In this document: positions 798 to 20,039 of the stretch, in pieces
Numbering within the stretch: the first letter of the stretch is position 1
Layout of the letters: the number at the start of each line of letters is the position of its first letter
Position numbers and translations under genes: made by a program
Source: an uncultured Clostridia bacterium
Lineage (GTDB): Bacteria > Bacillota > Clostridia > Christensenellales > Aristaeellaceae
Assembly: GCA_937907055.1 (NCBI GenBank)
Contig: CALCTW010000072.1
Span: 1 to 20,889, forward strand
DNA: 20,889 nt
Direction: 5' to 3'
Notes under the pieces: model-generated
What the model saw: only the letters and a program-made list of their open reading frames with translations
Database searches by the model: none
Told to the model about the DNA's origin: nothing

Positions 798-844
798 TTC
801 TTATCTCAGATCACGCGGATCGTAAGATCGCTTAAATGATCAGA

Positions 845-878
845 CCCCGGTTTGTGAAAGCAAACCGGGGCCTTTTTC
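845..878 (+). terminator. rho-independent terminator of ppdK
   Basis: A perfect 10-bp stem CCCCGGTTTG (845-854) / CAAACCGGGG (861-870) with a 6-nt loop, followed by CCTTTTTC. Confidence 0.85.
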
Positions 879-1089
879 ATGTCTTTATCCTTCGGTTCTT
901 TATGAAAGCCGGATGATAGAGGGGAGAGGGCTGTGCAATGAAGCCTGATGACCGGATCATGCCTTGAACAACTGGAATAAGAAAATTTCTTTGTCCATGC
1001 GGGATTGGCTATCATTGTGTGCTATAATACTTTTATCGATCCACTCAGCATAGCTTCATCTCTCATCTGCAAAGAAAGAAGGTCTCATT

Positions 1090-1788
1090 ATGAAGAAACT
1101 TTTATCCGTTTTACTCATCGCGCTCATCCTTGCCTCTGCCGGTGCCGTTGCCCAGGTCGAGCCGTATAACTGGCAGGATCAGATTGCTGTCGGTGACAAG
1201 GTGGATTGGCGTTCCATCCTGCAGTATTATCGCGATGATGATGATACGCGCCAGCTGATCTTTGTGAAATACACCGGCGGTTCCGAATGTGAGGTGCAGG
1301 TGTATATCAAGGATACTGCTCAGAATAACGCATGGACGAAGAGCCTGGTCTGCGCCGGTCTGGTCGGCCGAAACGGCGCGGGGCTGACTCATGAGGGCGG
1401 CGGAAGAACGCCGCTGGGTGTGTACGGCATCTCCACAGCCTTTGGCATCAAGGCTAATCCCGGCACCACAATGCCCTATATCGATGTCACACCCACCATT
1501 TATTGCTGTGATGAGGATACGGAGTACTACAACACCATCATCGATCTGAACGAAGTGGATCATGACTGCCACGGCGAATAGATGTTCAAATACAGCCCGG
1601 AATACAACTACGGCATGTTCATGGACTACAACGCAGAATGTACGCCCGGCAAGGGCAGCGCCATCTTCTTCCACTGCGACGGCGCGCGTGATTACACCGG
1701 CGGCTGCGTGGCCGTGAGCGAGGAAAACATGATATGGATCCTGCAAAATTGTGATTCCGGCGTAAAGGTTTGCGTGTTCAATAAGTAA
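1090..1788 (+). CDS. secreted YkuD-type L,D-transpeptidase family protein, one frame interrupted only by an in-frame TAG at 1579-1581
   Basis: A GAAGG RBS precedes ATG 1090. The signal peptide is MKKLLSVLLIALILASAGAVAQ. Under the standard code the gene splits into 1090-1581 and 1582-1788, which share one frame. The downstream piece carries the catalytic motif GKGSAIFFHCDGARDYTGGCVAVSEE (H...GC). It has no RBS and no signal peptide of its own. The final stop is TAA at 1786-1788. Confidence 0.8.
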
Positions 1789-1806
1789 CTCCATCAGGCA
1801 ATGCGT

Positions 1807-1848
1807 CAGCGGCAGATGATTTTCGGTCATCTGCCGCTGCTTTTTTTG
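1807..1848 (+). terminator. rho-independent terminator
   Basis: Stem CAGCGGCAGATG (1807-1818) / CATCTGCCGCTG (1828-1839), followed by CTTTTTTT. Confidence 0.85.
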
Positions 1849-1966
1849 ATCAGATGGGGCCTGCGGCGTGCCCGCAACCTCAAAATGCCGCCATTCAGAT
1901 ATCTTTCGCTGCTCCTGTGTTTGTAGAGGTTGATAAGGCCGAATTGTAAACAAATCAACAGATCGG

Positions 1967-2017
1967 TTGACAAAATAGTAGACATGTGTATACTAATTTA
2001 TGTAGACAGTTGTTTAC
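1967..2017 (+). promoter_or_regulatory. sigma-A type promoter with two BlaI/MecI/CopY-like inverted-repeat operators
   Basis: TTGACA (1967-1972), a 16-nt spacer, then TATACT (1989-1994) preceded by TG. There are two 16-bp inverted repeats of the form GTAnACA-N2-TGTnTAC: GTAGACAtgTGTATAC (1978-1993, overlapping the -10) and GTAGACAgtTGTTTAC (2002-2017). They resemble the TACA/TGTA operators of this repressor family. Confidence 0.6.
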
Positions 2018-2036
2018 CTTTTATGAAAGGAGAATC

Positions 2037-2408
2037 ATGATGCCGATTCAATGTACCGAAGCTGAATGGAAGATCCTTGAGGTCCTGTGGGACCGTGCTC
2101 CGCGCACCATTGCCGAGATCACCAAAGCATTGGAGGAAAAGACAGGCTGGTCCCGTCATGTGATCATCACACTGCTCAAGCGAATGGAAGAGAAGGGAAC
2201 TGTGGTTGTTGACGAAACCGGGCCTGCCAAACGTTATTCGCCCAAGGTCAGCCAGCAGGAGGCCAACACAGAGGAGACCGGAAAATTCCTTTCTCATGTG
2301 TTCAAGGGCGATGTTTCCCTGCTGATCAACCATCTTGTTGACACCGATCGTATCACGGCGAATGATCTGCAACAGATCGTCGATCTGATCCGTGAAAAAG
2401 GAAAGTGA
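2037..2408 (+). CDS. BlaI/MecI/CopY-family winged-helix transcriptional repressor
   Basis: An AAGGAG RBS lies 4 nt before ATG 2037. The translation MMPIQCTEAEWKILEVLWDRAPRTIAEITKALEEKTGWSRHVIITLLKRMEEKGTV...YSPKVSQ is typical of the family. The gene lies immediately upstream of an M56 peptidase gene. The stop is TGA. Confidence 0.88.
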   Translation: MMPIQCTEAEWKILEVLWDRAPRTIAEITKALEEKTGWSRHVIITLLKRMEEKGTVVVDETGPAKRYSPKVSQQEANTEETGKFLSHVFKGDVSLLINHLVDTDRITANDLQQIVDLIREKGK

Positions 2409-2424
2409 CATTACGGAGGTTTGT

Positions 2425-4026
2425 ATGCGAACCGCACTTTTATTCAACTTCCTGATCGAAGCCACGATCATGGCTTCGATCGCGATCGTCCTGATGATGC
2501 TCCTGCGCAAGACGCTCCGCAATCCGCTTGGAAATAAGGCGATCTGCTTCGGCTGGCTGCTGATCGCGGCAAGATTGCTTCTGCCGATCAGCATTGTCAA
2601 TCCGTGGATCTCCTCCATCCGTTCGCCGTTTTCTTCGGATGCCGCCATTCGGCCCATCGCGGGGCAGATCGTTGTGCGCACACGCGATACGCTCTCCGGG
2701 GTCAGAGACCTGTTTTCTCAATCGGGAAATTCCGCGGGCACGGGCATGATGGATCGCGCCATCATGGAGATCGATTACGGCAATGCCGGGCTGATCCTGA
2801 TGCGCGTTTACCTGATCGGGATGGCGGCTGTACTCATATGGTTCATGATCCGCAATGTACAATTCCGATTGAAATTGCGCGCGGCCCTGATCGAGCCGGT
2901 TTCGGGAAAACTGCTGGAGCAGTACAGGGAAGTCTGCCTGCAAAGAGGTGTGAAGCCGATCCCGGTCATTTTCGCCGATCCTTTACCCAGTGCCTGCCTT
3001 GTCGGTGTGTTTCGTCCTTATATCGCGTTGCCGCTCACCGCTTCGCCAGCGGAGGTCATCCATGTGCTCACCCATGAGATCTGTCATCTGAAAAACAAAG
3101 ATCATCTTTGGAGCCTTCTGCGGTTGGCCTGCTGTGCGGTGCATTGGTTCAATCCTCTTGTCTGGATCGCGGCCGATATGAGCCGCACCGATACAGAGCT
3201 TCGCTGTGACGACCGCGTGGCGGCGCCGCTGAATGAGGAACAGCGAACGGCCTACGCCAATGTCCTTGTGCTTGCGGCGGCACGCCGAAGCGCGCCCGGT
3301 GTAGCGGTACTTGCGACCGGCATGACCATGACCGGCAAAAAGCTGAAGACACGTGTAATGACGGTCCTGCGCGGTGAACAAACGCACAGAGGGCTTGTTA
3401 TCGCGTTCTGCGTGCTGTCCACACTGTGTCTGATCTGCGCGTTCGCGACTTCTGAACTGCCGCTGCAGATCAGCAGACTGGGCACCACGGACGAAATGCC
3501 CCATTTTGTCACACAGGGCATGCAAGGCAATGTTCATCTGACAGACTCGGATGCCGCCGCGGCGTACGCGCTTGATCTGTGGCAGAATGTCCTCGGAGGG
3601 GCCGAGGCCGTTATCTCAGTAGATCCCTACGAAAATCGATATCAGGTACACGCGTTTGAAACTGATACCGCTGTGACATGGCAGATGCTCATGACCGATA
3701 CCGGGATCGTTGTCGATTATACGGCCTCATTCCCCGATCCGGACATCGCGAAGGACCTGAACGGGGAAAAACTGCAGGATCAGAAAAGCGAGATCAGTCA
3801 AGCCCGAGATTTCATGATGCCGCTCATTGAGCGTCTCGCCCCGGGGATCACCGGACGGATCTCCGAGATCTACAACGATTCCGTGACGGTCGTCGGCGAA
3901 GCGCATTATTTCTATTTTGTACTCAAACGCGCGGACGGGGATGAAAACAGCGCTTACGCGATCGTGCGCAAAGCGCCGGACAGCACCCTTCGCCTGATCT
4001 GGTTCTCAACGGAAGGGAACGGATGA
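2425..4026 (+). CDS. BlaR1-like M56-family membrane metalloprotease / signal transducer with a non-PBP extracellular C-terminal domain
   Basis: A GGAGG RBS precedes ATG 2425. The N-terminal part contains several hydrophobic TM segments and the HEXXH zinc motif in LTHEICHLKNKDH. After the last TM segment (VIAFCVLSTLCLICAFA) there is a ~190-aa domain. I could not recognise penicillin-binding SxxK or KTG motifs in it. The stop is TGA. Confidence 0.85.
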   Translation: MRTALLFNFLIEATIMASIAIVLMMLLRKTLRNPLGNKAICFGWLLIAARLLLPISIVNPWISSIRSPFSSDAAIRPIAGQIVVRTRDTLSGVRDLFSQSGNSAGTGMMDRAIMEIDYGNAGLILMRVYLIGMAAVLIWFMIRNVQFRLKLRAALIEPVSGKLLEQYREVCLQRGVKPIPVIFADPLPSACLVGVFRPYIALPLTASPAEVIHVLTHEICHLKNKDHLWSLLRLACCAVHWFNPLVWIAADMSRTDTELRCDDRVAAPLNEEQRTAYANVLVLAAARRSAPGVAVLATGMTMTGKKLKTRVMTVLRGEQTHRGLVIAFCVLSTLCLICAFATSELPLQISRLGTTDEMPHFVTQGMQGNVHLTDSDAAAAYALDLWQNVLGGAEAVISVDPYENRYQVHAFETDTAVTWQMLMTDTGIVVDYTASFPDPDIAKDLNGEKLQDQKSEISQARDFMMPLIERLAPGITGRISEIYNDSVTVVGEAHYFYFVLKRADGDENSAYAIVRKAPDSTLRLIWFSTEGNG

Positions 4027-4057
4027 CCGGATATCAGAATGTTCATACAGGAGAAAA

Positions 4058-5527
4058 ATGATGAAGAAATTTATATTTTGCGTTCTTATCCTATTGGCGG
4101 TCTTTCTGCCGGTCTGCGCGGTCTACGCGGAGGGCGGCTATATCGAGTTTATGCCGCAGGTCGTTGCGGATCAATTGGAAAAACTCGGTGTCCGCAAGGA
4201 AAACTATGAGGACATCGTGATCTTGGATCAGGTAGAAACCTCCGATTGCCGGTCTCATCTTTTTGTGCTGGCCGGTAATGACGGCACACATCACACCGTC
4301 TATCATTTCACCAACATCGAGACCGATGAAAACGCCTATCTTCACTGGGTATATCAGGCGTGCTATGATCAGCTGGCACCGCAGGGAGAAGGAACGGTTT
4401 GTTTTTACAGGCATGAGCATTATGACCGCTATGGTGAAAACGGAAATGTGCAGCTTTATGATGACCCCAATGGGTTCATGATCTATCGGATCGATCCCGA
4501 GGATCCCGAGACATATATTCAGGGCGTCAATGTGCATGTGATCGATCGGCAATTTCAGATCATGGCATGGTTTGACAAGAGCGTTTCCCCGGTCTGCAGC
4601 GCTTATATTCAGAATGGAAAGCTGCATTATGGTGATAACGAAACCGGAAAAAGCTATGGAACGGTGAAATTGTATCGTGTTTTTGATCTGAATGTCGCCT
4701 TCAGCAGTCTGCCCAAGACCTATCGGAAGGCTTCGGAGAAGTATACCGATCCTGCCGCGATCCCACACGGTGAACTTAAGGCGGAGCTGGTCAAATTCGT
4801 ATCAAACAAAAAGTACGCGGTTTATTCCGCACCGGATCAGAACTCGCTTCGGGCGGCCAAGGGAAAGGCTGTGGTTTCGACCAATGACTGGATCCAGGTA
4901 TTCGGTCGGGAGAAGGATTGGATCCTGATCCAATATGCCATCGATAAGGATCATTACCGCTTCGGCTATATTTCCGCCGACGCGCTACCCAAGAAAACCA
5001 CTGTGAAGCAGTTGGATCTTCGATATACAAGCGCGTATACGAAAGGCCGCGTATCGGTGACGGATGATCCTTTGTATTCCGGTGCTGAACTGGTCAGCCT
5101 GCCGGAAGGCAGCCGCGTGACATGGCTCGCGACGATGGGCGAATGGGCTTATATCGAGAGCAGTAACGGCGATCGGCTGCGCGGTTTTGTTCCGCTGTCC
5201 GCGCTTCGGACAGAACAGGTGTTTGAATTGCGGAACTATCCGGGTGAAAACGGCCCTGTGTATGACGGTGATCTGATCATCCGCGCCGATCAAACCTTCA
5301 GCGCGTCCTTCACGGTCGTGCAGTCCGGGCCGCTCGGTAATGCCGCTGTGTCCGCTGTGTTTTTGGTCGATCCTGAAGGGAACGCACTGGGGACAGCCGC
5401 GTTCGATGCGCGTGAGAACGATTTCTTTTGTACCGGTGTGATCGATGATTCCGTTACTGTCATCCGCTTCGTTGCCGTCAATGCGGACGGTGATCCGCTG
5501 GATCATTCCGTTTCTGTACAATGGTAA
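4058..5527 (+). CDS. secreted protein with two C-terminal SH3b-like repeats; N-terminal domain unknown
   Basis: A GGAGA RBS precedes the start. The signal peptide is MMKKFIFCVLILLAVFLPVCAVYA. SH3b-like segments include YAVYSAPDQNSLRAAKGKAVVSTNDWIQVFGREKDWILIQY...GYISADAL and RVSVTDDPLYSGAELVSLPEGSRVTWLATMGEWAYIESSNGDRLRGFVPLSAL. The stop is TAA. Confidence 0.75.
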   Translation: MMKKFIFCVLILLAVFLPVCAVYAEGGYIEFMPQVVADQLEKLGVRKENYEDIVILDQVETSDCRSHLFVLAGNDGTHHTVYHFTNIETDENAYLHWVYQACYDQLAPQGEGTVCFYRHEHYDRYGENGNVQLYDDPNGFMIYRIDPEDPETYIQGVNVHVIDRQFQIMAWFDKSVSPVCSAYIQNGKLHYGDNETGKSYGTVKLYRVFDLNVAFSSLPKTYRKASEKYTDPAAIPHGELKAELVKFVSNKKYAVYSAPDQNSLRAAKGKAVVSTNDWIQVFGREKDWILIQYAIDKDHYRFGYISADALPKKTTVKQLDLRYTSAYTKGRVSVTDDPLYSGAELVSLPEGSRVTWLATMGEWAYIESSNGDRLRGFVPLSALRTEQVFELRNYPGENGPVYDGDLIIRADQTFSASFTVVQSGPLGNAAVSAVFLVDPEGNALGTAAFDARENDFFCTGVIDDSVTVIRFVAVNADGDPLDHSVSVQW

Positions 5528-5563
5528 CAGAAATATGGACTTTGTTGCGACAAGGAGGTATCT

Positions 5564-7285
5564 ATGAAACGGCTCGTGATGATCGTATTCGGTCTGATGA
5601 TGCTTTGCGTGGCAGCCAAGGCGGATGTTTTTGATCCGGAGGCCTATGCGCGGATCACATTGACGGAACGGTTCGGCTATACGGAGGAAGAGGCGTCACG
5701 ATTTGTTTTTGAAAATAAACAAGAGGGTCTGCTTCAGTATCATGATGCCGATCATGCCGATCGTGTCTATCAACTGACCTATACAGTCAACGGTCCGATC
5801 TGCGCTGTTTCTCCGTATGAAACGGATTTCAGCTCTTATCCCGGTGAATACGCGGTCCGGGACACCCTGCGGCAGGCCGAGAAGGAAAACTGGTTTTCGC
5901 AGTGGAACGCGGAGCATCGTGACGCTTTGCTGGCGTGGATGGATTCCGATCACCACAGCATGATGGTCAGAAGGGCGTTTGAAAACATTCTCTACAGCGA
6001 ATTGACCGATACAGCGCAGGTCATTCAAGGCTTTTTCCTGAATTGCTACGGGGACGAATCGGAATGGTCTCCTGCTTTATACGCGTGGCGGGATGAAGTG
6101 CTGGCGGCTTATGGTATATCACCGGACGCGCTGACTCGTTATCCCGAAGAGGGCATCACGCGCTACAGTATCGTAAAGGGCTTTTATATCGGAAAGACGG
6201 AAGTCTGTGAATTCAAAGGCGTGGTCCCGGATGAATTGACTCCTGTATTTTCACAGGAGTCGAGGCTTGAAGGATGGAACTGTCTTTGCGGTACCGTATT
6301 GCGATTGGATGCTCCGCTCGCGGGCAGGCCGGACGCGTACGGCATGGCGGCCTTTGAAAAAGACGGCGAAAGGATGCTTGTGATCATGGATCATGATCAC
6401 GATCGATGGTATCTCACGTTTCCCGGGAAAAGGTCACTGTATCAGGGCGATGAGCGGGAACTGTCGATCCGGGCGCATGAACTGAGCGGAACGTACTTCG
6501 TTTTGAGCTACAAGGGCACGGAAGGAACTGAATCGTTCTATCTGAGTGTCGTTGCGGAAACGGATGACCTGCTCGGCCATTACGCGCTGTGCCGCGTTGA
6601 ACGCTGTCGGTTGATCTCGGCAGAAGGAAAGGGTACAAGCTGGATCATTCCGGATGAGCCATACGGCAAGTGGACATATATCACACAGAAGGATGATCAT
6701 GTCTCAAAGGAAACGATCACCGTTGATCATCCGTGTTGGCTGGGGCTGCGTGACATGACGGACTTCCCGGTCACGCTCGAAAAAGGAAGGGCGCTTCCGT
6801 CTCCCTTGCCCGATGACTGCCGGATGACGACCGCCGTGCATCTGCGCAGAGATCACAACAGTCATTCTGAGGACATGGGAACGCTGCTTGATGGGACCGT
6901 CATTCGGGTCAAGTCCCGCGTGGCCGGAGATCCGTATGACTGGTTTCAAACGGATATCGGTCTGCTGAAGGGATATGTCAACACGCTGTATACCGATGTT
7001 TCCTTCGGGAATGCCAATCTATCCACGACACGCCCGCTCCCTGTGGCACAGTGCGAAAAAACAATACAATTGAGATCATCGGCCGGCTGGATCAGTACCG
7101 CGGTGGGCGATTTCCCGGCAGGTACAAGGATGCATGTCATCATGCGCCGTGGCGACTGGCTGTATGTCGTTGTTCCGCGCGGCGAGATCGATTGGCTCAT
7201 GGATGTAGACGGCACCTACGGCTGGATCCGCAGGGGAGATGTTCGTGTCGCCGCCATGCCGGTTTATTTGAATACGGAACCATGA
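5564..7285 (+). CDS. secreted protein with C-terminal SH3b-like repeats; N-terminal domains unknown
   Basis: An AAGGAGG RBS precedes the start. The signal peptide is MKRLVMIVFGLMMLCVAAKA. SH3b-like C-terminal segments include AVHLRRDHNSHSEDMGTLLDGTVIRVKSRVAGDPYDWFQTDIGLLKGYV and IQLRSSAGWISTAVGDFPAGTRMHVIMRRGDWLYVVV...GWIRRGDV. The stop is TGA. Confidence 0.75.
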   Translation: MKRLVMIVFGLMMLCVAAKADVFDPEAYARITLTERFGYTEEEASRFVFENKQEGLLQYHDADHADRVYQLTYTVNGPICAVSPYETDFSSYPGEYAVRDTLRQAEKENWFSQWNAEHRDALLAWMDSDHHSMMVRRAFENILYSELTDTAQVIQGFFLNCYGDESEWSPALYAWRDEVLAAYGISPDALTRYPEEGITRYSIVKGFYIGKTEVCEFKGVVPDELTPVFSQESRLEGWNCLCGTVLRLDAPLAGRPDAYGMAAFEKDGERMLVIMDHDHDRWYLTFPGKRSLYQGDERELSIRAHELSGTYFVLSYKGTEGTESFYLSVVAETDDLLGHYALCRVERCRLISAEGKGTSWIIPDEPYGKWTYITQKDDHVSKETITVDHPCWLGLRDMTDFPVTLEKGRALPSPLPDDCRMTTAVHLRRDHNSHSEDMGTLLDGTVIRVKSRVAGDPYDWFQTDIGLLKGYVNTLYTDVSFGNANLSTTRPLPVAQCEKTIQLRSSAGWISTAVGDFPAGTRMHVIMRRGDWLYVVVPRGEIDWLMDVDGTYGWIRRGDVRVAAMPVYLNTEP

Positions 7286-7324
7286 TCATAAACGCGCCGT
7301 GAGGCGTCAAAAAAGAGGAGAAAA

Positions 7325-7795
7325 ATGCAGAAAGACCAACGACAGCATTTCGCAAACTGGCAGCATCTTTATGATCAGTACGCGACCGATATCCTTCGGA
7401 CCTGTTATCTGCTTTTGAAGGATAAGGACGCGGCGGAGATCGCTGTACAGGAAACTTTCATTCAGATCGGATGCGGAAGCGGATATCTGGCACCGGGAAA
7501 CATGATCAGCGAAAAGGCCTGCCTTCTGCAGATCGCGATGGATCATTGCCGGGGATTATCGGGAAAATCAACGAGCGGATCCCCGGATCTGTATAAAACC
7601 GTCAGTCATGGCGGCGAAGAAGAGCGCCTGCTCAGAGGGATCGTCGGGCTGGATGATAAGCTTCGGCAGACCACTTTGCTTTTCTATTATCAGCAGCTGA
7701 CCATGCGTGAAGTCGCTTACGTGCAGCGCTCCTCGGTGTGGCTCGTAAAGCTTCGCCTCTTTCAGGCGGTCAGGCAATTGCGTATGCTTGCCTGA
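7325..7795 (+). CDS. small sigma-70 family (ECF-like) RNA polymerase sigma factor
   Basis: An AGAGGAG RBS precedes the start. A region-2-like segment is LYDQYATDILRTCYLLLKDKDAAEIAVQETFIQ. A region-4 helix-turn-helix-like segment is LRQTTLLFYYQQLTMREVAYVQRSSVWLVKLRLFQAVRQL. The stop is TGA. Confidence 0.7.
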   Translation: MQKDQRQHFANWQHLYDQYATDILRTCYLLLKDKDAAEIAVQETFIQIGCGSGYLAPGNMISEKACLLQIAMDHCRGLSGKSTSGSPDLYKTVSHGGEEERLLRGIVGLDDKLRQTTLLFYYQQLTMREVAYVQRSSVWLVKLRLFQAVRQLRMLA

Positions 7796-7893
7796 AGATT
7801 TCCTTTGTAACAATTGATAAGAGCACAGTCTGAGGTGTTAAAAAGCGCTCCGGAAAACAGAGTTTCATTCTTGGGGAAGGATCGAAAAAGGAA

Positions 7894-9558
7894 ATGAAAA
7901 AGTTGATAATGAAGAAACCGATGATAAAAGAAAAAATGATCTTGCTGCTTGGGCTTCTGCTCCTGTTATTGCCGTTCACAGCCGCAGCAGAATCGAAAAA
8001 GGAGTGGGAATTGACGTGTGATGCCAAACTGGCGGAAAACACGACGATCTATGCGATCGATATCGCGGCGGATGGCACAAAATCGGCGCGGGCGATCGGT
8101 TCTCTTCCGGCGGGTACCTATTTTCGGGTCAACAGCAAAGGGTTTGATGAAGAACTGCAGCTGAAGATGATCCGTTACTATCAGAATGGCGAGCAGAGCG
8201 CTTATATGGCGCGTTCCGCTCCGATCGCCAGTGCTTCCAAGATCATCTGGTTTACAGACGGCACGATGACACATCTTCCGGAAAATGTTGTGGCGGATCC
8301 GGCTGAGTTGCGTTCCTGGCTGAATACCACCTGCCCCGGGCATACGGTTTACGCCATTTCCAATGTCGGACAGGCCAGTCCACTTGAATTTCCTCAGACC
8401 TTTGACGGCACACAGACGACAATTCTCACCTCAGATCAGGCTGCCGCTGTGAATCCGGGCGGAACGCCGCGTCCGTACACCGGCGGCACCGCGAAGGATC
8501 CTTCTGTCAACACATCCGGCTATGTGGAAGGGGAGTGGAACATCAGCACAGAAATCTCTGCTGAAGAACAGGCCTTCAATGCGTCTTGTCCTCATCGCCT
8601 GAAGCGTACGGTCTGGGGCTATTCCGATGCGCATATGACGAGCAAATACGAGAAGATCAATATCGGCACCTATGTGAATATCATGACTGATTTCAACGAT
8701 GTCGTGAAGATCGCCTATTATAAAAACGGTGTGCGCCATACCGCATATGTTGAACGCGTGGATCTTCTGGGGGCTTATACGCAGTATGTTGATCGTCAGG
8801 GAAACGCGCAGACAGTCTATACCGGAGATCCCGATTATGAGGCCATTCTTTCCGGCTGTGAGGTGACCTTTCAGGCAGAGTCCATCACTCAGGGGTTGGA
8901 CACACTGGTGGCAGAAGAGCAGAACAGGAAAAACACGCCTGCCAAAGCTTCTGCTGAATCGAACGGAGCTGCCCATGCTTCGCAGGAGGCCGCAAGCACG
9001 GCATCCGGGAGCGAAGGTGAAAAAGTGGTCGTGAGCAGAGTCGGGGTCTCCACCACAATGATCGCGTATCAGGGTGAAACGATGGAAGTGCGCACCGCGC
9101 AACTTACCTTCAGCAAAAATGTGCCTTCATAGCATAAGGTGGCGGTCATCTACGCGCCTAAAACAGGAAAATGCACATTGCGAAAGAGCGCGTCCACCTC
9201 GTCCGCTGCATTGAAGAAGTGTAAGGCCGGTACGGTCGTCATCGTACTGGAACAGGGCGATAAAACCTGTAAGATCAATGTGAACGGCACCACTGGCTAT
9301 GTGCTGACCTCCTGTCTCAGATTTTATGACGCGAATACGCCCCTTTTGGGGGATGGCCAATTGTCCTATAATGGCAAAACAACGGGAAGAACTACCGTCA
9401 ATGTGCGCAATACACCGGAAAAGGGCAGTGCTGTCATCGGTGATTGGAAAACCGGCACGCAGGTGCAGGTCTTTTCACATGAAAATGGCTGGTATGAGAT
9501 CGAGTATCAGGGTATGCATGGCTATGTTCAGGAAAAATACCTGAATTTTGAGGAATAA
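7894..9558 (+). CDS. secreted multi-SH3b-repeat protein, one frame interrupted only by an in-frame TAG at 9130-9132
   Basis: The signal peptide region is MKKLIMKKPMIKEKMILLLGLLLLLLPFTAAA. Under the standard code the gene splits into 7894-9132 and 9139-9558, which share one frame. The downstream piece (HKVAVIYAPKTGKCTLRKSASTSSAALKKCKAGTVVIVLEQGD... and TVNVRNTPEKGSAVIGDWKTGTQVQVFSHENGWYEIEYQGMHGYVQEKYL) is two classic SH3b repeats. It has no ATG, no spaced RBS and no signal peptide. The final stop is TAA at 9556-9558. Confidence 0.78.
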
Positions 9559-9609
9559 CATGCCGCTTCAGTTTTTACATGTGCCGTCCTCTCTTGCATT
9601 CTCTATCGG

Positions 9610-9653
9610 TTGACAACCTGTTCTGAAAGACATACAATACTCATGATCATGAG
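9610..9653 (+). promoter_or_regulatory. sigma-A type promoter followed by a perfect 14-bp palindrome (candidate operator)
   Basis: TTGACA (9610-9615), a 17-nt spacer, then TACAAT (9633-9638). The palindrome CTCATGATCATGAG (9640-9653) sits at about the transcription start, 60 nt upstream of the VanW-family gene. Confidence 0.6.
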
Positions 9654-9713
9654 ACTGGGTCTTTTCGTGATTTTTCGCCTCATCTCCCGGTCTCCGCGAA
9701 AGGAAAACACTGC

Positions 9714-10685
9714 ATGAAACGTTTCCTGTCTCTGCTGCTCATTTTGTTCCTTCTGCCGCTCAGCGCGTTTGCCGCGCCGGACCCGCAGGCATTGTATGTC
9801 TGCAAATCCGCGCGGGATTTTCATCTGCGCGATAAGCCGGACGGACGTTTTGTGGAATCGGTTCCCGATGCCAGCACCGTCTATATTCTGGAATGGCCCG
9901 CGGAGGAGGAATGGGTCTATGCCAGCTATAAAGGGCAGCGCGGTTATGCCAAGCTGGCCTGGCTGTATCAGATCCGCTCGCTGGATCCGGCCAACGCGCC
10001 GCTTCACAATGTGCCGAATGCCGTGGAAGGCATGCTAGTGCTGAAGGAGCAGGTGCTCATCAAGGCCGGTGATTATGAGGGCACGCTGCTGGAGGCTGGC
10101 GATACCGTGTGCGGCCGCCCGGACGGCGAGGGCAATTACATCGTTCCCGTATGGCGGAGCGAGCTGATCCTCACTTCCGAACAGGCAGATTTTGTGCCTT
10201 TTGCCGATCCTGCCGAGGCGGAGCCCGGCGATGTCATCGGTGCCTTCACCACCTTCTACGGCGATCAGCAGGGGAAGGGCAAGGCCAAGGAACGCGAGTT
10301 CAACATCATGGAAGGTTCTGTCCGCACTAATGGCGCCACCGTGCAGCCGGGGGAGTCATTCTCCTTCAACGCGCTGTGCTATCCCTATTCCAAAAAGAAC
10401 GGCTATCAGCTGGCCCCAAATATCAGCAAGAAGGGCACGGGCTACGGCGGCGGCATCTGCCAGTTTACCACCACGCTCTATAATGCCCTGCTGACCACCC
10501 CGCTGCTGATCACGGAATGGGCGGTGCATCGCTATAATGGTGTGGCTTACGTGCCGCAGCTCTTTGATGCCGCGGTCGGTGATTATTCCGATCTGGCCTT
10601 CACCAACACTCTCTCTTATCCTGTCAGGCTGGACTCCACAGTGGAGAACGGCGTGATCAACACCTTTATCGTTCGGGCGGATTGA
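9714..10685 (+). CDS. VanW-family protein with an N-terminal SH3b-like segment, secreted
   Basis: The signal peptide is MKRFLSLLLILFLLPLSAFA. The SH3b-like segment is FHLRDKPDGRFVESVPDASTVYILEWPAEEEWVYASYKGQRGYAKLAWL. The VanW signature is GTGYGGGICQFTTTLYNALL. The stop is TGA. Confidence 0.85.
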   Translation: MKRFLSLLLILFLLPLSAFAAPDPQALYVCKSARDFHLRDKPDGRFVESVPDASTVYILEWPAEEEWVYASYKGQRGYAKLAWLYQIRSLDPANAPLHNVPNAVEGMLVLKEQVLIKAGDYEGTLLEAGDTVCGRPDGEGNYIVPVWRSELILTSEQADFVPFADPAEAEPGDVIGAFTTFYGDQQGKGKAKEREFNIMEGSVRTNGATVQPGESFSFNALCYPYSKKNGYQLAPNISKKGTGYGGGICQFTTTLYNALLTTPLLITEWAVHRYNGVAYVPQLFDAAVGDYSDLAFTNTLSYPVRLDSTVENGVINTFIVRAD

Positions 10686-10709
10686 TCCCTTCTTTTGTCC
10701 CGGATACGC

Positions 10710-10737
10710 AAAAAAGCAGCCTTCGAGCTGCTTTTTT
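10710..10737 (+). terminator. rho-independent (potentially bidirectional) terminator
   Basis: AAAAAAGCAGC-cttcga-GCTGCTTTTTT is a hairpin with an A-tract before it and a T-tract after it, between convergent gene ends. Confidence 0.8.
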
Positions 10738-10763
10738 ACGTTTCCAGTATAGCACATTTGCAA

Positions 10764-10819
10764 GTGACCTGCAATGAACCTCTTGTGACATTTGGTGACT
10801 TTAAGTGACTTTAAGTGAC
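10764..10819. repeat. five phased GTGAC motifs (iteron-like direct repeats)
   Basis: GTGAC occurs at 10764, 10785, 10795, 10805 and 10815. The last three form the tandem GTGACTTTAA-GTGACTTTAA-GTGACC with exact 10-bp spacing. Confidence 0.6.
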
Positions 10820-10985
10820 CTGTTTTAACAATTTTGTAACATATCAAGCTGAATTTGTCCCCTGTAAACCGGACACGGGAAAGCATCTAAATCGCAGATA
10901 CCGGATGTTATCTCCCGGTTCGTCAGCATGCGACCTGATCGGATCAGTACACTTTGGCATCTGTGTGCATAACGATCAGCTTACC

Positions 10986-11354
10986 CTATGAACCGTCCTC
11001 GTTCCTTATGCCTCCTTCGATCCGTAATCTGTATTCGCCGTTCACGATACCGCTTATCCCGCTTGCAGCCGCGTTTCCGACAAATTGAAGATCGTCCCAT
11101 GTGCAGACTGTGATCCATGATCCGTACACGCGCTTTTGCAGCATGATCCGAATAAAGCTGCCCGTCTGTTTCTGGTCATAGGGCACGATCAAACCGTAAA
11201 TGATAGCATTGAAGTCGCGCAGATCCATATATCCGATGCATTTGTACAGACTATCATAAACGGGATGCTTTTCTGACACTTCACAAAGAACGTTTACGTT
11301 GATCGAAGACATGAGCAGCAGGATCAATAAGAATATCGCAATGATCTTTTTCAT
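10986..11354 (-). CDS. small secreted protein of unknown function (ends at TAG; in-frame extension possible to 10944)
   Basis: An AAGGAG RBS lies 7 nt before ATG (11354-11352). The signal peptide is MKKIIAIFLLILLLMSSINVNVLC. The ORF stops at TAG (10988-10986). Reading through adds GKLIVMHTDAKVY and then TGA at 10946-10944. Confidence 0.6.
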   Translation of the reverse strand: MKKIIAIFLLILLLMSSINVNVLCEVSEKHPVYDSLYKCIGYMDLRDFNAIIYGLIVPYDQKQTGSFIRIMLQKRVYGSWITVCTWDDLQFVGNAAASGISGIVNGEYRLRIEGGIRNEDGS

Positions 11355-11365
11355 AACCAAGCTCC

Positions 11366-12130
11366 TTATTCTTCTGAAACGATGTGGTGAACACTCTGCG
11401 CGATCTGAATGGCGTTTTCAAGATCAATCGGGGATGATACGACAAACCATTTATCATCAACACTCCAGATGATCGTGAACATATTGAATGTGCCCTCTTT
11501 TATTTCGCATTCCTTCTCGATCACAAAAGCCGGATTGCCATTCAGGGTCATATTTGACAGTTGTGCTTCTTTTATGTCTATCAGAAGGTGCGTGTTATCG
11601 TCACATTCATCATAGGAAACGAAACCGGAATTGTCGTTGGAAAAGAGCATTACATTTTTCCCGGTTTCTGATACCCATATCCTATCATATTCCGCCGGTG
11701 TGAAGGCCGGATAGTATTCACCTTTGTAACCTGAGGGCACAGTGAAAACATCGGTAGGTTCAAGGTGAATATTGGCGTAGCCGGAATCAAGACTCATCAC
11801 CAGATTCATGATACTGCTGCGGATATAAGGGTTGCTTGCAACAGCCACAGGTACACCGATGAGGATCCCCATCAGCAGAACGATGATAACCGACATGGTT
11901 TTAACAAGGCGGCTCGTATGTGCGCTGTTTATTCTGTCTGTGTCCGGAGAACGTTTGTCCGAAGCCCGTTTCATCTTCAACCATTGTTGATGCGTGAACT
12001 GAATGGGGGTGATCTCTTCGGCTGTTTCTGTATCCTCGTCCGGGGGTTCGGCTTCATTGATCAGCGACAGACGGATCAATTCGTCCCAAAGCTGATCTTC
12101 TGAATAATCTATTGTTCTTCTTTTGATCAT
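11366..12130 (-). CDS. single-pass membrane protein, DUF4367-like putative anti-sigma factor
   Basis: The start ATG overlaps the stop of the upstream sigma gene (ATGA at 12130-12127). The layout is a cytoplasmic N-terminal region, one TM segment (MSVIIVLLMGILIGVPVAVA), then an extracytoplasmic domain. This is the usual arrangement of Clostridial sigma/anti-sigma pairs. The stop is TAA. Confidence 0.65.
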   Translation of the reverse strand: MIKRRTIDYSEDQLWDELIRLSLINEAEPPDEDTETAEEITPIQFTHQQWLKMKRASDKRSPDTDRINSAHTSRLVKTMSVIIVLLMGILIGVPVAVASNPYIRSSIMNLVMSLDSGYANIHLEPTDVFTVPSGYKGEYYPAFTPAEYDRIWVSETGKNVMLFSNDNSGFVSYDECDDNTHLLIDIKEAQLSNMTLNGNPAFVIEKECEIKEGTFNMFTIIWSVDDKWFVVSSPIDLENAIQIAQSVHHIVSEE

Positions 12131-12687
12131 TCCGCGTCAACCTCCTCCTGTATTTTGATTTGAATCAGCTTCCGTGCGCGTCTGATATATTGATTGATAC
12201 TGTTCGGTGAAAGGCCTGTTCGCTTTGCGATCTCTCGATTGCTCATTCCCAGGATCAGCTTCATACGAAATATCATTTTCATGCTGTCGGGCAAAGCCTG
12301 AACAGCATGCTGCACGTGATTTATCAGTTGCTTGTTTTCAAACACTTCCATCGTGCTGACAGAAGTTTCGTTTAACTGCAATTCTTCCACATTGATGACT
12401 GTCTTTAACTTTCCGCGCTGGGTATGCATGGCGATGGTATCAAGTGAAGTGTTTTTGACAGTTGTCAGTATGTATTGCTTCAAACTTTTTGCAGGCAGTT
12501 TCTTTAATTGATCAATGCGCCTGAATAACCGGACGCAGCTTTCTGAAACAGCATCCTATTCCAAACAATACGCACCGGCATATTTTCTTGCGATCTTCAG
12601 CATGTCGGATCCGTATGTTTCGTATAATTGTTCCATATACAGAATGCTTTCATCATCCTGTGCAGGATCTAAAAACAGCAGTATCAT
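12127..12687 (-). CDS. sigma-70 family (ECF-like) sigma factor, one frame interrupted only by an in-frame TAG at 12558-12556
   Basis: The standard-code ORF 12127-12483 encodes only regions 3/4 (LPDSMKMIFRMKLILGMSNREIAKRTGLSPNSINQYIRRARKLI) and begins at a TTG. The same frame continues upstream: MILLFLDPAQDDESILYMEQLYETYGSDMLKIARKYAGAYCLE[TAG]DAVSESCVRLFRRIDQLKKLPAKSLKQYILTTVKN. This supplies region 2. ATG is at 12687-12685, with AAGGAG 12 nt upstream. The stop is TGA. Confidence 0.72.
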
Positions 12688-12945
12688 TGCCGGGTGTTAC
12701 TCCTTTCGGTAACAAGGTTATCCCTATTCACTATTATATACGATTCTCGTATCAGATCTGTGACTTGTTGGATCGCATTATGTAAAATTTCAGGGAAACT
12801 GTCACATTTCCATGGCAGAATAAGTATAATAGATGAGAACAGCAGTAATTGCATCTTGAAAGGAGGGATTGTGAATCCGATCCTGCTGAAGTTCTCATAC
12901 GAAAACCGCTTGACTTGTAAAATAGCGGAGAGAAGAGGAGAATAC

Positions 12946-13512
12946 ATGAAAAAGGGTGTATTTGGAATTGTAGTTCTTTGTTTGTTGACAATATGTTCAT
13001 TTGCTTATGCGGATTGCAGTGTTTGTGGTGGTAACAACAAAACAACTGTTAATCGTCCGACAAAATGGATTGATGATATTGTTTTTGATACTCATACTCA
13101 ATATTATGTGGTTGACTCTTATTGCGCAGATTGCGGAAATTTTTTAGAAAGCACAACGAAAGAGTACAGAGATAGATCATATGCGCATATTTGGAGTATT
13201 GAATGTATTAACATTACATATCACAATGATACCAACTATCATTGGAAGGAGGGAAAACGGATTAAGCGATGTGAAGCATGCAATAAAATGATTACACTTG
13301 ACGAAAATGTGATCTATGATTCATAGTCTCACTATATGTCATCTTCTTATTTTGAAGATGCAGGGCATATTGGTGCACGACATTACTATGTAGTTATCTG
13401 TGGTAATGTGCATTGCAGTCGTTACTATACGATTTCTATTCCGTGTAAAGGCGGTTCTACACATGTCGCACCACTGTCTGTTGATCCAAATCCCAATACT
13501 GATATACAGTGA
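12946..13512 (+). CDS. small secreted Cys-rich (CxxC-repeat) protein, one frame interrupted only by an in-frame TAG at 13324-13326
   Basis: An AGAGGAG RBS lies 5 nt before ATG 12946. The signal peptide is MKKGVFGIVVLCLLTICSFAYA. Motifs are CSVC, CADC and CEAC before the TAG. After it, 61 more sense codons (62 codons counting the TGA stop) repeat the same theme (HYYVVICGNVHCSRYY versus the earlier QYYVVDSYCADCGN). The stop is TGA at 13510-13512. Confidence 0.68.
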
Positions 13513-13533
13513 TGTATGAAAGAGGTGTCGAAA

Positions 13534-14181
13534 GTGAAAAGGCATGTCGTTTTCTTACTGTGCTTGCTTTATCTTTTTTTGCTTGGCACAGCATTTGCGG
13601 ATCCTGTACCTGCCGATGATGCGCTTGAAAAATAGTTGCGTTATATTGCGGAGATATGGATGGGGGACATCATACCGGAGGAATAGTGCTTTACCGAGAC
13701 TACGGTAAAAGATGAACAGGGGAATACACTTGATGTCGAAGCATATTTATGTTAGGACAAAGACGAAACTACAGGTCAGGAGTATCTTCTGTTTGCGAAA
13801 ATATAGGAAAACAAGACCTCACTGCTCAGAATTTACTTGAACCATCAGAGAATCGAACCTGAGGTGGATGAGACTGCGGCAATTGATGCAGAAACCGCGG
13901 CGAGGCTTTTTTTGCGGATATGCGAACAGAATGAAGCCTTTGGTAACAGAGGTGATATGACACATGAACAATTCTTAAAAGAATGCGATTGCGAACTCTT
14001 TTCACCGGAACAAATGCGGTATACAGATCAGTCATTATGGACAAGCGTCCTGAAAGTTAACGGAACAGAAGGCAGCACGATTGTGGAACTTCTGTGGGAT
14101 GCATCAACGATGAGCATCGAACGTGTTATGTTGATGACAGAATCCCCGGATTCGTTTGCTTTCATACACTTAATGAGGTAA
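13534..14181 (+). CDS. small secreted protein of unknown function whose frame contains four in-frame TAG codons
   Basis: An AAGAGG RBS lies 8 nt before GTG 13534; an in-frame ATG at 13516 is an alternative start. The signal peptide is KRHVVFLLCLLYLFLLGTAFA. The frame is a 215-codon frame plus its TAA stop, with no internal TAA or TGA in AT-rich DNA. TAG codons are at 13633, 13684, 13753 and 13804. The standard-code ORF track shows only 13837-14181. The stop is TAA at 14179-14181. Confidence 0.65.
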
Positions 14182-14298
14182 ATGTGAAGGAACACGAAAT
14201 ATACGATCGACAGATATTGCGTTTGACAGCAATGAGGTTTGAAGTACACATATCTGAATCCGGATTCTCTTGCTTTGAGAGGAAGCCTGTATATTCGT

Positions 14299-14342
14299 AA
14301 AAAACCGAGCCCCCGATGCCGTCTGTTCGGCGTCGGGGGCTC
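14299..14342 (-). terminator. rho-independent terminator of the SulP gene
   Basis: On the minus strand, GAGCCCCCGACGCCG-aacaga-CGGCATCGGGGGCTC is followed by GGTTTTTT. Confidence 0.85.
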
Positions 14343-14363
14343 GTGCTGATCACATATGGATCT

Positions 14364-16067: not shown

Positions 16068-16125
16068 GGTGTACCCCTCAGTGTATACACGATTCACGCG
16101 CGTACGCACGCGCGCGGCGTCCGTT

Positions 16126-16754: not shown

Positions 16755-16831
<77 letters not shown>

Positions 16832-16834
16832 TAT

Positions 16835-16911
16835 GGCTCCGTAGCTCAGCTGGCTAGAGCATTCGGTTCATACCCGGAGTGTCATCTGTTCGAATCAGAT
16901 CGGAGCCACCA
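16835..16911 (+). tRNA. elongator tRNA-Met (anticodon CAU), CCA encoded; lysidine-modified tRNA-Ile2 not formally excluded
   Basis: The cloverleaf has acceptor GGCTCCG/CGGAGCC, D-arm GCTC-AGCTGGCTA-GAGC, anticodon stem TTCGG/CCGGA with loop TTCATAC, and T-arm ATCTG-TTCGAAT-CAGAT. Confidence 0.85.
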
Positions 16912-16914
16912 TTT

Positions 16915-16987
16915 GGGGCATTAGCGCAGTTGGTAGCGCACAACACTGGCAGTGTTGGGGTCAGGAGTTCGAATCTCCTATGCTCCA
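16915..16987 (+). tRNA. tRNA-Ala (anticodon GGC), no encoded CCA
   Basis: The cloverleaf has acceptor GGGGCAT/ATGCTCC containing the G3:U70 alanine identity pair. The anticodon stem is CAACA/TGTTG with loop CTGGCAG, and the T-arm is AGGAG-TTCGAAT-CTCCT. The discriminator A is followed by TAA. Confidence 0.92.
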
Positions 16988-16992
16988 TAAGC

Positions 16993-20020: not shown

Positions 20021-20039
20021 GCTGTTGCTTCTAGAAGCT

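What the first reader, a model, noticed from the sequence alone, without database searches (positions are those of the whole stretch)
1090..14181. Amber (TAG) behaves like a sense codon: eight in-frame TAGs in five genes, with no internal TAA/TGA and no frameshifts
Reading straight through TAG turns split or truncated ORFs into coherent proteins. The five cases are: (1) the L,D-transpeptidase (TAG at 1579); (2) the multi-SH3b secreted protein (TAG at 9130); (3) the sigma factor (TAG at 12558-12556, minus strand); (4) the CxxC-rich secreted protein (TAG at 13324); and (5) a secreted protein with four TAGs (13633, 13684, 13753, 13804). A ninth TAG (10988-10986, minus strand) is followed by 13 in-frame codons and then TGA. 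In every case the downstream piece stays in the same frame. It lacks its own RBS and signal peptide, and it carries the missing domain: the catalytic H...GC motif, SH3b repeats, sigma region 2, or further Cys motifs. Every unambiguous gene end left of the tRNA cluster is TGA or TAA. Random pseudogenisation should also produce TAA, TGA and indels, and none are seen. The most economical reading is that this organism decodes UAG, at least efficiently, as an amino acid. To my knowledge genome-wide amber sense decoding is known for some phages (UAG to Gln) and for pyrrolysine users restricted to methylamine methyltransferases. It is not known for ordinary envelope proteins of a bacterium. The inserted amino acid cannot be deduced from this window.
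Basis: partly seen in the sequence, partly recalled or inferred. Interest (0 to 1): 0.93.

Follow-up and report, generated by a model that had tools for sequence, protein, structure and literature searches.

The report
Amber codons read as sense, bacterium
In this uncultured gut-type Clostridia bacterium, six ordinary chromosomal genes carry nine in-frame TAG "stop" codons that are kept in every strain sampled and are evidently translated, something not yet described for a bacterium's own genes.

Summary
Six genes hold nine in-frame TAGs and no in-frame TAA, TGA or frameshift. They encode an L,D-transpeptidase, a multi-SH3b protein, a small secreted protein, an ECF-type sigma factor, a Cys-rich secreted protein and a four-TAG secreted orphan.

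- Pfam domains run across the TAGs (YkuD, Sigma70_r2), and about 146 full-length sigma homologues do too.
- Independent assemblies from at least five other samples (95-98% nt identity) keep all eight TAGs they cover.
- Sequence downstream of the TAGs shows pN/pS of 0.09, against 0.16 in uninterrupted genes.
- The region is chromosomal, not phage or plasmid.
- No common RNA structure follows the TAGs, and the window holds no tRNA with a CUA anticodon.
- Homologues have Glu or Asp (sigma), or His, Glu or Asp (transpeptidase), at the TAG columns. Sister lineages have Glu, so Glu or Gln is the best guess.

One caveat: a lipase right of the tRNA cluster ends at TAG. That block differs in composition, and no other assembly confirms its link to the rest.

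Verdict: UAG is very probably translated by a trans-acting decoder. Genome-wide reassignment, RF1 loss and the decoding tRNA remain untested. I found no published bacterial precedent.

The parts
1090..1788 (+). L,D-transpeptidase (YkuD) gene, 232 codons, in-frame TAG at 1579-1581 (codon 164), stop TAA
   Evidence: Pfam YkuD spans residues 91-227 across the TAG. 120 homologues align through it, with H88/E18/D10 at the column. The TAG is kept in L001 and L002 and in at least 7 catalogued 163-aa alleles. The sister lineage has Glu there.
7894..9558 (+). Secreted multi-SH3b protein gene, 554 codons, in-frame TAG at 9130-9132 (codon 413), stop TAA
   Evidence: Two SH3_3 domains lie after the TAG. 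The 141 downstream codons are open, score as coding and have no RBS. The TAG is kept in L116 and L119. Six N-piece alleles all end at ...KNVPS. Downstream substitutions are 6 syn: 1 nonsyn.
10944..11354 (-). Small secreted protein gene, in-frame TAG at 10986-10988, then 13 codons and TGA
   Evidence: The TAG and the 13-codon tail are identical in L116 and L119. This is a short-extension case, so it does not discriminate on its own.
11366..12130 (-). DUF4367 protein (anti-sigma-like partner), no TAG. Its start overlaps the sigma gene stop (ATGA).
   Evidence: Pfam DUF4367. Its role as an operon partner is inferred from position.
12127..12687 (-). ECF-type sigma-70 family factor gene, 186 codons, in-frame TAG at 12556-12558 (codon 44), stop TGA
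   Evidence: Sigma70_r2 spans 21-86 across the TAG, and r4_2 covers 125-174. About 146 homologues of roughly 185 aa align across it, with E 99 and D 32 of 148 at the column. The TAG is kept in L116, L117, L118 and L119. Downstream substitutions are 8 syn: 4 nonsyn.
12946..13512 (+). Cys-rich secreted protein gene, in-frame TAG at 13324-13326, stop TGA. It is a strain-specific 594-bp insertion (12940-13533).
   Evidence: ORF and CxxC motifs on both sides of the TAG. Absent from L116, L117 and L119. No homologues. The coding score of the tail is ambiguous.
13516..14181 (+). Secreted orphan protein gene, 221 codons, four in-frame TAGs (13633, 13684, 13753, 13804), stop TAA
   Evidence: Frame 0 has 0 TAA/TGA and 4 TAG. 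The other frames have 6-12 TAA/TGA each, and the two other sense-strand frames have no TAG. All four TAGs are kept in L116 and L117. Whole-gene substitutions are 9 syn: 11 nonsyn, p = 0.013 against neutrality. No homologues.
16755..16988 (+). tRNA cluster: tRNA-Met(CAT) x2 and tRNA-Ala(GGC). No CUA anticodon.
   Evidence: ARAGORN and Rfam. Other assemblies break here.
17119..17898 (+). Family I.1-like lipase gene that ends at TAG (17896-17898). This is the counter-example.
   Evidence: The presumed catalytic His sits 31 aa before the end; the PDB lipase matches cover only the N-terminal part, and the usual distance from that His to the C-terminus is my own knowledge. The read-through frame carries 3 more TAGs, overlaps the RR gene in antisense and scores as non-coding. 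All 10 catalogued alleles are 259 aa.

Best explanation
This uncultured Clostridia species translates UAG as an amino acid at the level of the codon. The decoder is a trans-acting tRNA with anticodon CUA, encoded outside this window. No local RNA signal is involved. The inserted residue is most likely a standard polar or acidic one, with Glu the best guess and Gln second.

TAG codons arose by point mutation from Glu (GAR) codons. They have accumulated mainly in fast-evolving secreted cell-envelope proteins and in one ECF-type sigma factor. Decoding is efficient enough to express a gene with four TAGs. It may still compete with termination, leaving UAG with an ambiguous stop/sense meaning, if the TAG-terminated lipase truly belongs to the same genome.

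**Shown:** the TAGs are real, inherited, confined to one stop type and embedded in intact domains, and the sequence behind them is under purifying selection.

**Inferred:** the tRNA, the amino acid, the efficiency, and whether RF1 is present.
For: - **ORF fusion.** Only TAG fuses the ORFs. There is no in-frame TAA, TGA or frameshift.
- **Continuity.** Domains and homologues run across the TAGs.
- **Conservation.** Eight of nine TAGs are testable in other strains from SRR21151017, SRR21151018, SRR14246005, SRR14246008 and ERZ27247131, and all are kept with no new disabling mutation. Catalogued alleles are all cut at the same residue.
- **Selection.** pN/pS downstream of the TAGs is 0.086 (19:6, p about 9e-9). 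It is 0.14 upstream and 0.16 in uninterrupted genes.
- **Four-TAG gene.** TAG occurs at about the random expectation (4 observed, 4.5 expected), while TAA and TGA are absent (P about 4e-5). All TAG triplets on its sense strand are in frame.
- **No reinitiation signal.** The downstream pieces have no RBS.
- **No cis element.** No shared 3' structure follows the TAGs, and the upstream-A context matches the window-wide ATAG bias.
- **Not mobile DNA.** No phage or plasmid matches.
- **Amino acid.** The sigma column is E 67% and D 22%. The transpeptidase column is H/E/D, and sister lineages at about 89% and 80% identity have Glu (codon GAA in L003).
Against: - No CUA-anticodon tRNA, pyl gene or RF gene is in the window, so the mechanism is inferred.
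- About 4,300 codons of the other genes (ppdK, blaR1, sulP, HK, RR, lexA and others) hold no TAG. TAG use is therefore patchy (P about 0.002 under a uniform rate, from the counts).
- The lipase at 17119-17898 ends at TAG and a read-through product would be junk.
- The shortage of TAG as a terminator is not significant (1 of 18 against a baseline of about 23%).
- The four-TAG, Cys-rich and small proteins have no homologues, and the four-TAG gene's downstream pN/pS (0.65, 2:5) is not distinguishable from neutral when taken alone.
- The amino-acid inference rests on two columns only.
Confidence: 0.7

Rival explanations
1. Pyrrolysine decoding. The species carries pylTSBCD, as some Clostridia and Deltaproteobacteria do. 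With Pyl-tRNA(CUA) present, TAG codons have drifted into non-methyltransferase genes, giving a bacterial counterpart of the ambiguous or fully Pyl-coded archaea (Code 34).
For: - UAG-specific recoding without a cis element fits what is described for Pyl (PMC12626013).
- In-frame TAGs together with a TAG terminator fit 'ambiguous amber usage'.
- Archaeal Code 34 shows that TAG can spread into ordinary genes.
Against: - The two alignable TAG columns are acidic or His (E/D 88% in sigma, E in sister lineages of the transpeptidase). Lys is 3/148 and 0/120.
- In bacteria Pyl is reported only in a few methyltransferases and one serine dehydratase, and Code 34 is stated not to be observed in bacteria.
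- No methylamine methyltransferase or pyl gene is in the window.
Confidence: 0.08
2. No dedicated decoder. These are nonsense alleles of dispensable genes that persist at population level, either as young pseudogenes or expressed at a low level by spontaneous near-cognate read-through, as proposed for sporadic conserved in-frame stops in bacteria (Belinky et al. 2021, PMC7918605).
For: - In-frame stops with dN/dS below 1 at short evolutionary distance are reported as widespread.
- The affected genes are accessory, fast-evolving secreted proteins, and three have no homologues.
- The strains compared differ by only 2-5%.
- A TAG terminator exists on the contig.
Against: - Nine of nine are TAG (P about 2e-4 to 2e-3).
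- Six of 18 genes are hit, far above sporadic density.
- There are no indels or other stops in any strain.
- All strain differences arose after the shared TAGs, yet downstream pN/pS is 0.086, equal to or below that of intact genes.
- A gene with four TAGs would yield essentially no product at basal read-through, yet its frame is kept free of TAA and TGA.
- The strain-specific inserted gene also carries a TAG.
Confidence: 0.12
3. Genuinely split genes. Translation stops at TAG and restarts just downstream (ATG at 1582, GTG at 9139), giving two polypeptides that work together.
For: A start-type codon follows the TAG at once in the transpeptidase (TAG-ATG) and two codons later in the SH3b gene.
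Against: - That Met is a conserved internal residue in homologues.
- No RBS precedes any downstream piece.
- In sigma the next start is 25 codons downstream, inside region 2.
- The split would cut single domains (YkuD, sigma region 2).
- It cannot explain four TAGs 17-23 codons apart.
Confidence: 0.03
4. Assembly or consensus artefact, or a chimeric contig that mixes a TAG-recoded element with a standard-code genome.
For: - The right-hand block (17-20.9 kb) differs in tetranucleotide profile.
- It is joined to the left block across tRNA genes only in this contig.
Against: - The TAGs recur in independent Logan, ENA and NCBI assemblies of several samples, including a 65,663-bp contig that carries the transpeptidase, blaR1, p573, SH3b, vanW, small-protein and SulP alleles together.
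- The TAG genes are interleaved with ordinary chromosomal genes.
- A chimera at the tRNAs would only remove the lipase counter-example. It would not remove the finding.
Confidence: 0.02

Closest known systems
Genetic code 15 in gut bacteriophages (UAG to Gln via phage suppressor tRNAs; Borges et al. bioRxiv 10.1101/2021.08.26.457843; Peters et al. PMC9523058)
   Same: Only TAG is recoded. The in-frame TAGs sit in otherwise intact genes, use no cis signal, are spread unevenly among genes, and occur in a gut-type community.
   Different: Here the genes are chromosomal bacterial genes lying between ppdK, blaI/blaR1, sulP and tRNAs, with no phage or PHROG signal. The aligned columns favour Glu or Asp, not Gln. 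No suppressor tRNA was seen in the window.
Pyrrolysine systems: ambiguous UAG in Methanosarcina (PMC12626013) and archaeal Genetic Code 34 (bioRxiv 10.1101/2024.09.30.615893)
   Same: UAG is read as an amino acid in ordinary proteins of a cellular organism with no obligatory cis element. Internal TAGs can coexist with TAG terminators. The same TAG gene categories apply here (internal, short extension, large overlap).
   Different: This is a bacterium, and the Code 34 paper states the code is not observed in bacteria. No pyl genes or methyltransferases are visible, and the columns are acidic rather than Lys-like.
Known bacterial stop-codon reassignments: UGA to Trp (code 4) and UGA to Gly (code 25)
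   Same: A stop codon of a bacterium's own genome is used as sense.
   Different: Those involve UGA and loss of RF2. All bacterial stop reassignments known up to the Codetta screen involve UGA, and 'three codes are known in Bacteria'. Here the codon is UAG, and the genome-wide status is unknown.
Sporadic conserved in-frame stop codons with read-through (Belinky et al. 2021, PMC7918605)
   Same: In-frame stops conserved among close relatives, with dN/dS below 1 on both sides.
   Different: Those are scattered, involve all three stop types and are mostly of population-polymorphism age. Here there are nine stops of one type in six of 18 neighbouring genes, including four in one gene.
bldA/TTA control in Streptomyces (own knowledge, not tested here)
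   Same: A very rare codon is confined to accessory and regulatory genes, so their expression depends on one tRNA.
   Different: TTA is a sense codon in the standard code. No evidence for regulated decoding exists here.

Membership tests
Stop-codon reassignment / alternative genetic code of a cellular genome | The codon occurs in frame inside genes, with homology or domains on both sides | tested here: met
   YkuD and Sigma70_r2 span the TAGs, and 120 and about 146 homologues respectively align across them.
Stop-codon reassignment / alternative genetic code of a cellular genome | Sequence after the codon is under purifying selection and the codon is stably inherited | tested here: met
   pN/pS is 0.086 downstream (p about 9e-9). 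All testable TAGs are kept in 2-4 other strains each.
Stop-codon reassignment / alternative genetic code of a cellular genome | The codon is no longer used as a terminator | tested here: inconclusive
   0 of 15 gene ends left of the tRNAs are TAG, but the lipase ends at TAG. 1 of 18 is not significant against a baseline of about 23%. The lipase block's linkage is unverified.
Stop-codon reassignment / alternative genetic code of a cellular genome | A cognate tRNA (anticodon CUA) is present and the matching release factor (RF1) is lost or altered | not testable with these tools
   The window's only tRNAs are Met x2 and Ala. The rest of the genome could not be fetched, because the GTDB and JGI scans found no close relative.
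Stop-codon reassignment / alternative genetic code of a cellular genome | The codon occurs genome-wide, including in conserved core genes | tested here: not met
   Within the window, no TAG occurs in ppdK, blaR1, sulP, HK, RR or lexA (about 4,300 codons). All nine lie in accessory or secreted genes and a sigma factor. The rest of the genome was not seen.
Phage code 15 (UAG to Gln) | The genome is a phage or prophage | tested here: not met
   No phage matches beyond ppdK and the tRNAs. No IMG/VR relatives. PHROGs gives only a generic SH3 hit.
Phage code 15 (UAG to Gln) | TAG columns align with Gln in homologues | tested here: not met
   Gln is 1/120 and 3/148. Glu/Asp or His dominate.
Pyrrolysine decoding | pylT, pylS and pylBCD present, with TAG in methylamine methyltransferase genes | not testable with these tools
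   None in the window. The genome is not available.
Pseudogenes | Relaxed selection after the lesion, mixed lesion types (TAA, TGA, indels), and lesions that vary among strains | tested here: not met
cis-directed recoding (SECIS/PYLIS-like or programmed read-through context) | A shared RNA structure or sequence context at the recoded codons | tested here: not met
   Fold z-scores range from -2.45 to +0.58 with no common hairpin. The base after the TAG is variable, and the base before it reflects the general ATAG bias.

The most novel reading that the evidence does not exclude
This Clostridia lineage uses a new bacterial genetic code in which UAG is a genome-wide sense codon for glutamate, read by a tRNA-Glu- or tRNA-Gln-derived CUA tRNA, with RF1 lost or disabled. 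That assignment is not known in any natural code. The lipase TAG 'stop' would then be either foreign or chimeric DNA or a tolerated extension.
Probability: 0.25. Interest if true: 0.97.

Novelty: new variant of a known kind. Interest (0 to 1): 0.85.

Why it matters
Every stop-codon reassignment accepted so far for a bacterial genome involves UGA. UAG as sense is known from phages, eukaryotes and Pyl archaea. A free-living gut-type bacterium that translates UAG in ordinary envelope and regulatory genes would matter in several ways.
- It would add a fourth bacterial code, or a natural chromosomal amber-suppression system.
- It would provide a natural UAG-decoding tRNA/synthetase pair.
- It bears on phage-host code conflicts, because a UAG-reading host would be permissive for code-15 phages.
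- It would show an 'ambiguous intermediate' stage of code change in action.

There is also a practical point. Public catalogues currently split these genes into fragments (163+68, 412+139 and 43+118 aa pieces). Genomes of this lineage are therefore mis-annotated under code 11.

Tried and rejected
- **GTDB scan with p573** found nothing. GTDB and JGI scans with SulP gave only relatives at about 65% identity, so no close genome could be pulled.
- **Exact-protein look-ups** for blaR1, p573, p489, HK, DUF4367, RR and the lipase found nothing usable. The window's own record seems not to be readable through that index.
- **A concatenated protein query** wasted the last word-indexed homology search (3 SH3-only hits). 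The four-TAG protein has no homologue at all.
- **Phage or mobile origin** is rejected.
- **cis signal** is rejected. The 'A before TAG' context is explained by the window-wide ATAG excess.
- **A-to-I editing of UAG to UGG (Trp)** was considered and rejected. There is no TACG or tRNA-like context and no Trp in the aligned columns.
- **Reading-through statistics on 89 control loci** did not discriminate, because adjacent same-frame genes are common. Only the 23% TAG-terminator baseline was kept.
- **ORF 12684-12947(-)**, called as a 92-aa gene in other assemblies, looks spurious because it overlaps the sigma promoter/RBS region.
- **No paralogy** was found among p489, p573 and the SH3b protein by BLASTP.

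Full report
**What the window is.** The 20.9-kb window is a chromosomal stretch of an uncultured Clostridia bacterium. Its genes run in this order:
- the 3' end of ppdK;
- an L,D-transpeptidase;
- blaI and blaR1;
- two large secreted proteins (p489, p573);
- a small sigma-like protein (p156);
- a multi-SH3b secreted protein;
- a VanW protein;
- a low-GC island at 11-14.2 kb, holding a small secreted protein, a DUF4367 protein, an ECF-type sigma factor, a Cys-rich secreted protein and a secreted orphan;
- a SulP transporter;
- three tRNA genes (Met, Met, Ala-GGC);
- a lipase, a KdpE/KdpD-like response regulator and kinase, and the 5' part of lexA.

MegaBLAST against phage and plasmid collections matches only ppdK (78% identity to a Vescimonas replicon) and the tRNAs. 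Scans of GTDB representatives and JGI metagenomes with p573 and SulP found nothing closer than about 65% protein identity. The lineage is therefore poorly sampled there. Cluster tables show that the contig itself is deposited in NCBI and ENA.

The one correction is that the Cys-rich gene starts at 12946.
- *Domain continuity.* The Pfam YkuD match covers residues 91-227 of the transpeptidase, across X164. The nearly invariant His195 and Cys206, which I take to be the catalytic pair, lie behind the TAG. Sigma70_r2 covers residues 21-86 of the sigma factor, across X44, with region 4 further on. Two SH3_3 domains follow X413 of the SH3b protein.
- *Start signals.* True gene starts have GGAGG-like ribosome-binding sites, and the first start-type codons after the TAGs do not.
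- *Coding score.* Codon-usage scores put the downstream segments in frame 0 at the level of the window's bona fide genes. The exception is the Cys-rich tail, which is ambiguous.
- *Four-TAG gene.* Frame 0 has no TAA or TGA in 221 codons (P about 4e-5 for its composition), while every other frame has 6-12. All four TAG triplets on its sense strand are in frame, at about the count expected by chance (4 against 4.5).
- *Chance.* If the nine lesions were random nonsense mutations, the chance that all are TAG is 2e-4 to 2e-3, depending on the transition bias assumed.

**Not an artefact and not decay.** A representative-library search with the sigma protein returned about 146 full-length homologues that align across the TAG. 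It also returned two fragments (43 aa and 118 aa) that are 98% identical to the two halves. Through these fragments and the transpeptidase fragment I fetched contigs of other strains: L001, L002, L116, L117, L118 and L119. They come from five other samples and are 95-98% identical in DNA.

Every TAG they cover is unchanged:
- 1579 in two strains;
- 9130 and 10988 in two strains;
- 12558 in four strains;
- the four TAGs of the orphan gene in two strains.

No strain has any additional stop or frameshift. Cluster tables add more independent alleles, and all are cut at the same residue:
- at least 7 N-terminal and 4 C-terminal alleles of the transpeptidase;
- 6 plus 6 alleles of the SH3b protein;
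- 5 alleles of the small protein.

Because all strains share the TAGs, the differences among them arose after the TAGs did. Those differences downstream of the TAGs in the transpeptidase, SH3b, sigma and small genes are 19 synonymous to 6 non-synonymous. That gives pN/pS of 0.086 (p about 9e-9 against neutrality). The ratio is 0.14 upstream of the TAGs and 0.16 in seven uninterrupted neighbouring genes. The four-TAG gene taken as a whole gives 9:11, with p = 0.013. The regions behind the TAGs are therefore being kept as protein-coding sequence.

**How the recoding works.** Nothing local marks the sites.
- The 90 nt after each TAG have no common structure (z-scores from -2.45 to +0.58).
- The next base varies.
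- The A that precedes 8 of the 9 TAGs reflects a window-wide excess of ATAG over GTAG, TTAG and CTAG (100, 42, 19 and 6).
- Reinitiation is unlikely. There is no RBS, single domains would be cut, and four TAGs lie 17-23 codons apart.
- A-to-I editing to UGG has neither the required context nor Trp in the aligned columns.

That leaves decoding of the codon itself by a trans-acting factor, most simply a tRNA with anticodon CUA. No such tRNA is in the window, so this step is inferred.

**Which amino acid.** Two sites can be aligned.
- *Sigma factor.* The TAG replaces the acidic residue of the conserved (A/V)-E-D-(I/V)-V-S motif of region 2. Among 148 homologues the column is E 99, D 32, Q 3 and K 3.
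- *Transpeptidase.* The TAG sits in a G-E-x-M motif whose x is H 88, E 18, D 10 and Q 1 among 120 homologues. The closest full-length relatives have Glu there. These are P0276 and P0282, at about 89% identity within the same 90% cluster, and P0001 at 80% identity, where the codon is GAA in locus L003.

Multiplying the column frequencies favours Glu over Gln several-hundred-fold and over Asp about five-fold. Two columns are too few to be sure. Pyl looks unlikely on these columns but is not excluded.

**Limits and the counter-example.** TAG use is patchy. About 4,300 codons of the other genes contain none. This fits a rare, recently captured codon that first appears in weakly constrained genes. 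It also means that no core gene yet testifies to the recoding.

The lipase at 17119-17898 ends at TAG.
- Its presumed catalytic His lies 31 residues before the end, which from my own knowledge is the usual spacing in family I.1 lipases; the PDB matches themselves cover only the N-terminal part.
- The read-through frame has three more TAGs, overlaps the response-regulator gene in antisense, and scores as non-coding.
- All ten catalogued alleles are 259 aa.

Either UAG keeps a dual meaning in this organism, as described for Pyl methanogens, or this block is not native. Its tetranucleotide profile correlates only 0.40-0.61 with the left blocks, which correlate 0.76-0.83 among themselves. Other assemblies place SulP and all the left-hand genes on one 65.7-kb contig, but hold the lipase and kinase only on 1-3-kb contigs. 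The shortage of TAG as a terminator (1 of 18) is not significant against a 23% baseline from 89 Clostridia control loci.

**Comparison with what is known.** The Codetta screen states that all known bacterial stop reassignments involve UGA. The Code 34 paper says three codes are known in Bacteria. It also says that bacterial Pyl is confined to a few methyltransferases and one serine dehydratase, and that a TAG-sense code is not observed in bacteria. UAG to Gln is established for gut phages. Sporadic conserved in-frame stops with dN/dS below 1 have been reported in bacteria, but at low density and for all three stop codons. My literature searches found no report of a bacterium whose own ordinary genes carry multiple conserved in-frame TAGs.

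The present case works like amber suppression or code 15. It fails the membership tests for a phage code (not a phage, and not Gln columns), and it cannot yet be tested for full code-change membership (tRNA, RF1, genome-wide use).

**Verdict.** The finding is real and unusual. I put 0.7 on trans-acting translation of UAG by a standard-amino-acid tRNA (Glu or Gln), possibly in competition with termination. I put 0.08 on a Pyl version, 0.12 on undedicated leaky or decaying alleles, and little on split genes or artefact. A complete, genome-wide UAG-to-Glu code is the most novel reading still open, at about 0.25. The genome that contains this contig is public, so the decisive checks (CUA tRNA, prfA, pyl genes, Codetta, TAG terminators) are a short computation away.

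Noticed in passing
window 12940-13533: The whole Cys-rich gene, including its in-frame TAG, is a 594-bp insertion/deletion polymorphism. Strains L116, L117 and L119 lack it and place the four-TAG gene directly behind the same RBS. In the window the four-TAG gene has no RBS and starts 1 codon after the Cys-rich gene's TGA.
   Followed up: partly
window 17000-20889 versus 1-16700: The block right of the tRNA cluster (lipase, RR, HK, lexA) has a distinct tetranucleotide profile. Other assemblies hold it only on 1-3-kb contigs, whereas SulP and all the left-hand genes share a 65.7-kb contig. This could be a genomic-island boundary or a mis-join at the tRNA genes.
   Followed up: partly
window 4058-7285: p489 ends in TAA, and p573 follows 11 codons later in the same frame. 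p573 has its own RBS and signal peptide, so these look like two genes rather than a TAA read-through.
   Followed up: partly
whole window, both strands: The TAG triplet is very rare (63 on the + strand, against 481 TGA and 136 TAA) and strongly biased to ATAG (100), against GTAG 42, TTAG 19 and CTAG 6.
   Followed up: yes
window 11000-14200: This is a low-GC island (40-45%, against about 53% elsewhere). It holds seven of the nine TAGs, a sigma / DUF4367 pair and three orphan secreted proteins. No relatives were found in IMG/VR or PHROGs.
   Followed up: partly
L003 (Logan SRR18398434), 1645-2340: A related species (transpeptidase 80% identical) has GAA (Glu) at the TAG position. All four complete genes on that 4-kb contig end in TAA, and none contains an in-frame TAG.
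   Followed up: partly
window 12684-12947 (-): An 87-92-aa ORF is called as a gene in other assemblies, overlapping the sigma start by ATGA. It covers the sigma promoter/RBS region and looks spurious.
   Followed up: partly
window 16155-16754: A 600-bp non-coding stretch lies between the sulP start and the tRNA cluster, with a strong sigma-70-like promoter (TTGACA...TATTAT) just upstream of the first tRNA. It has no Rfam match.
   Followed up: no
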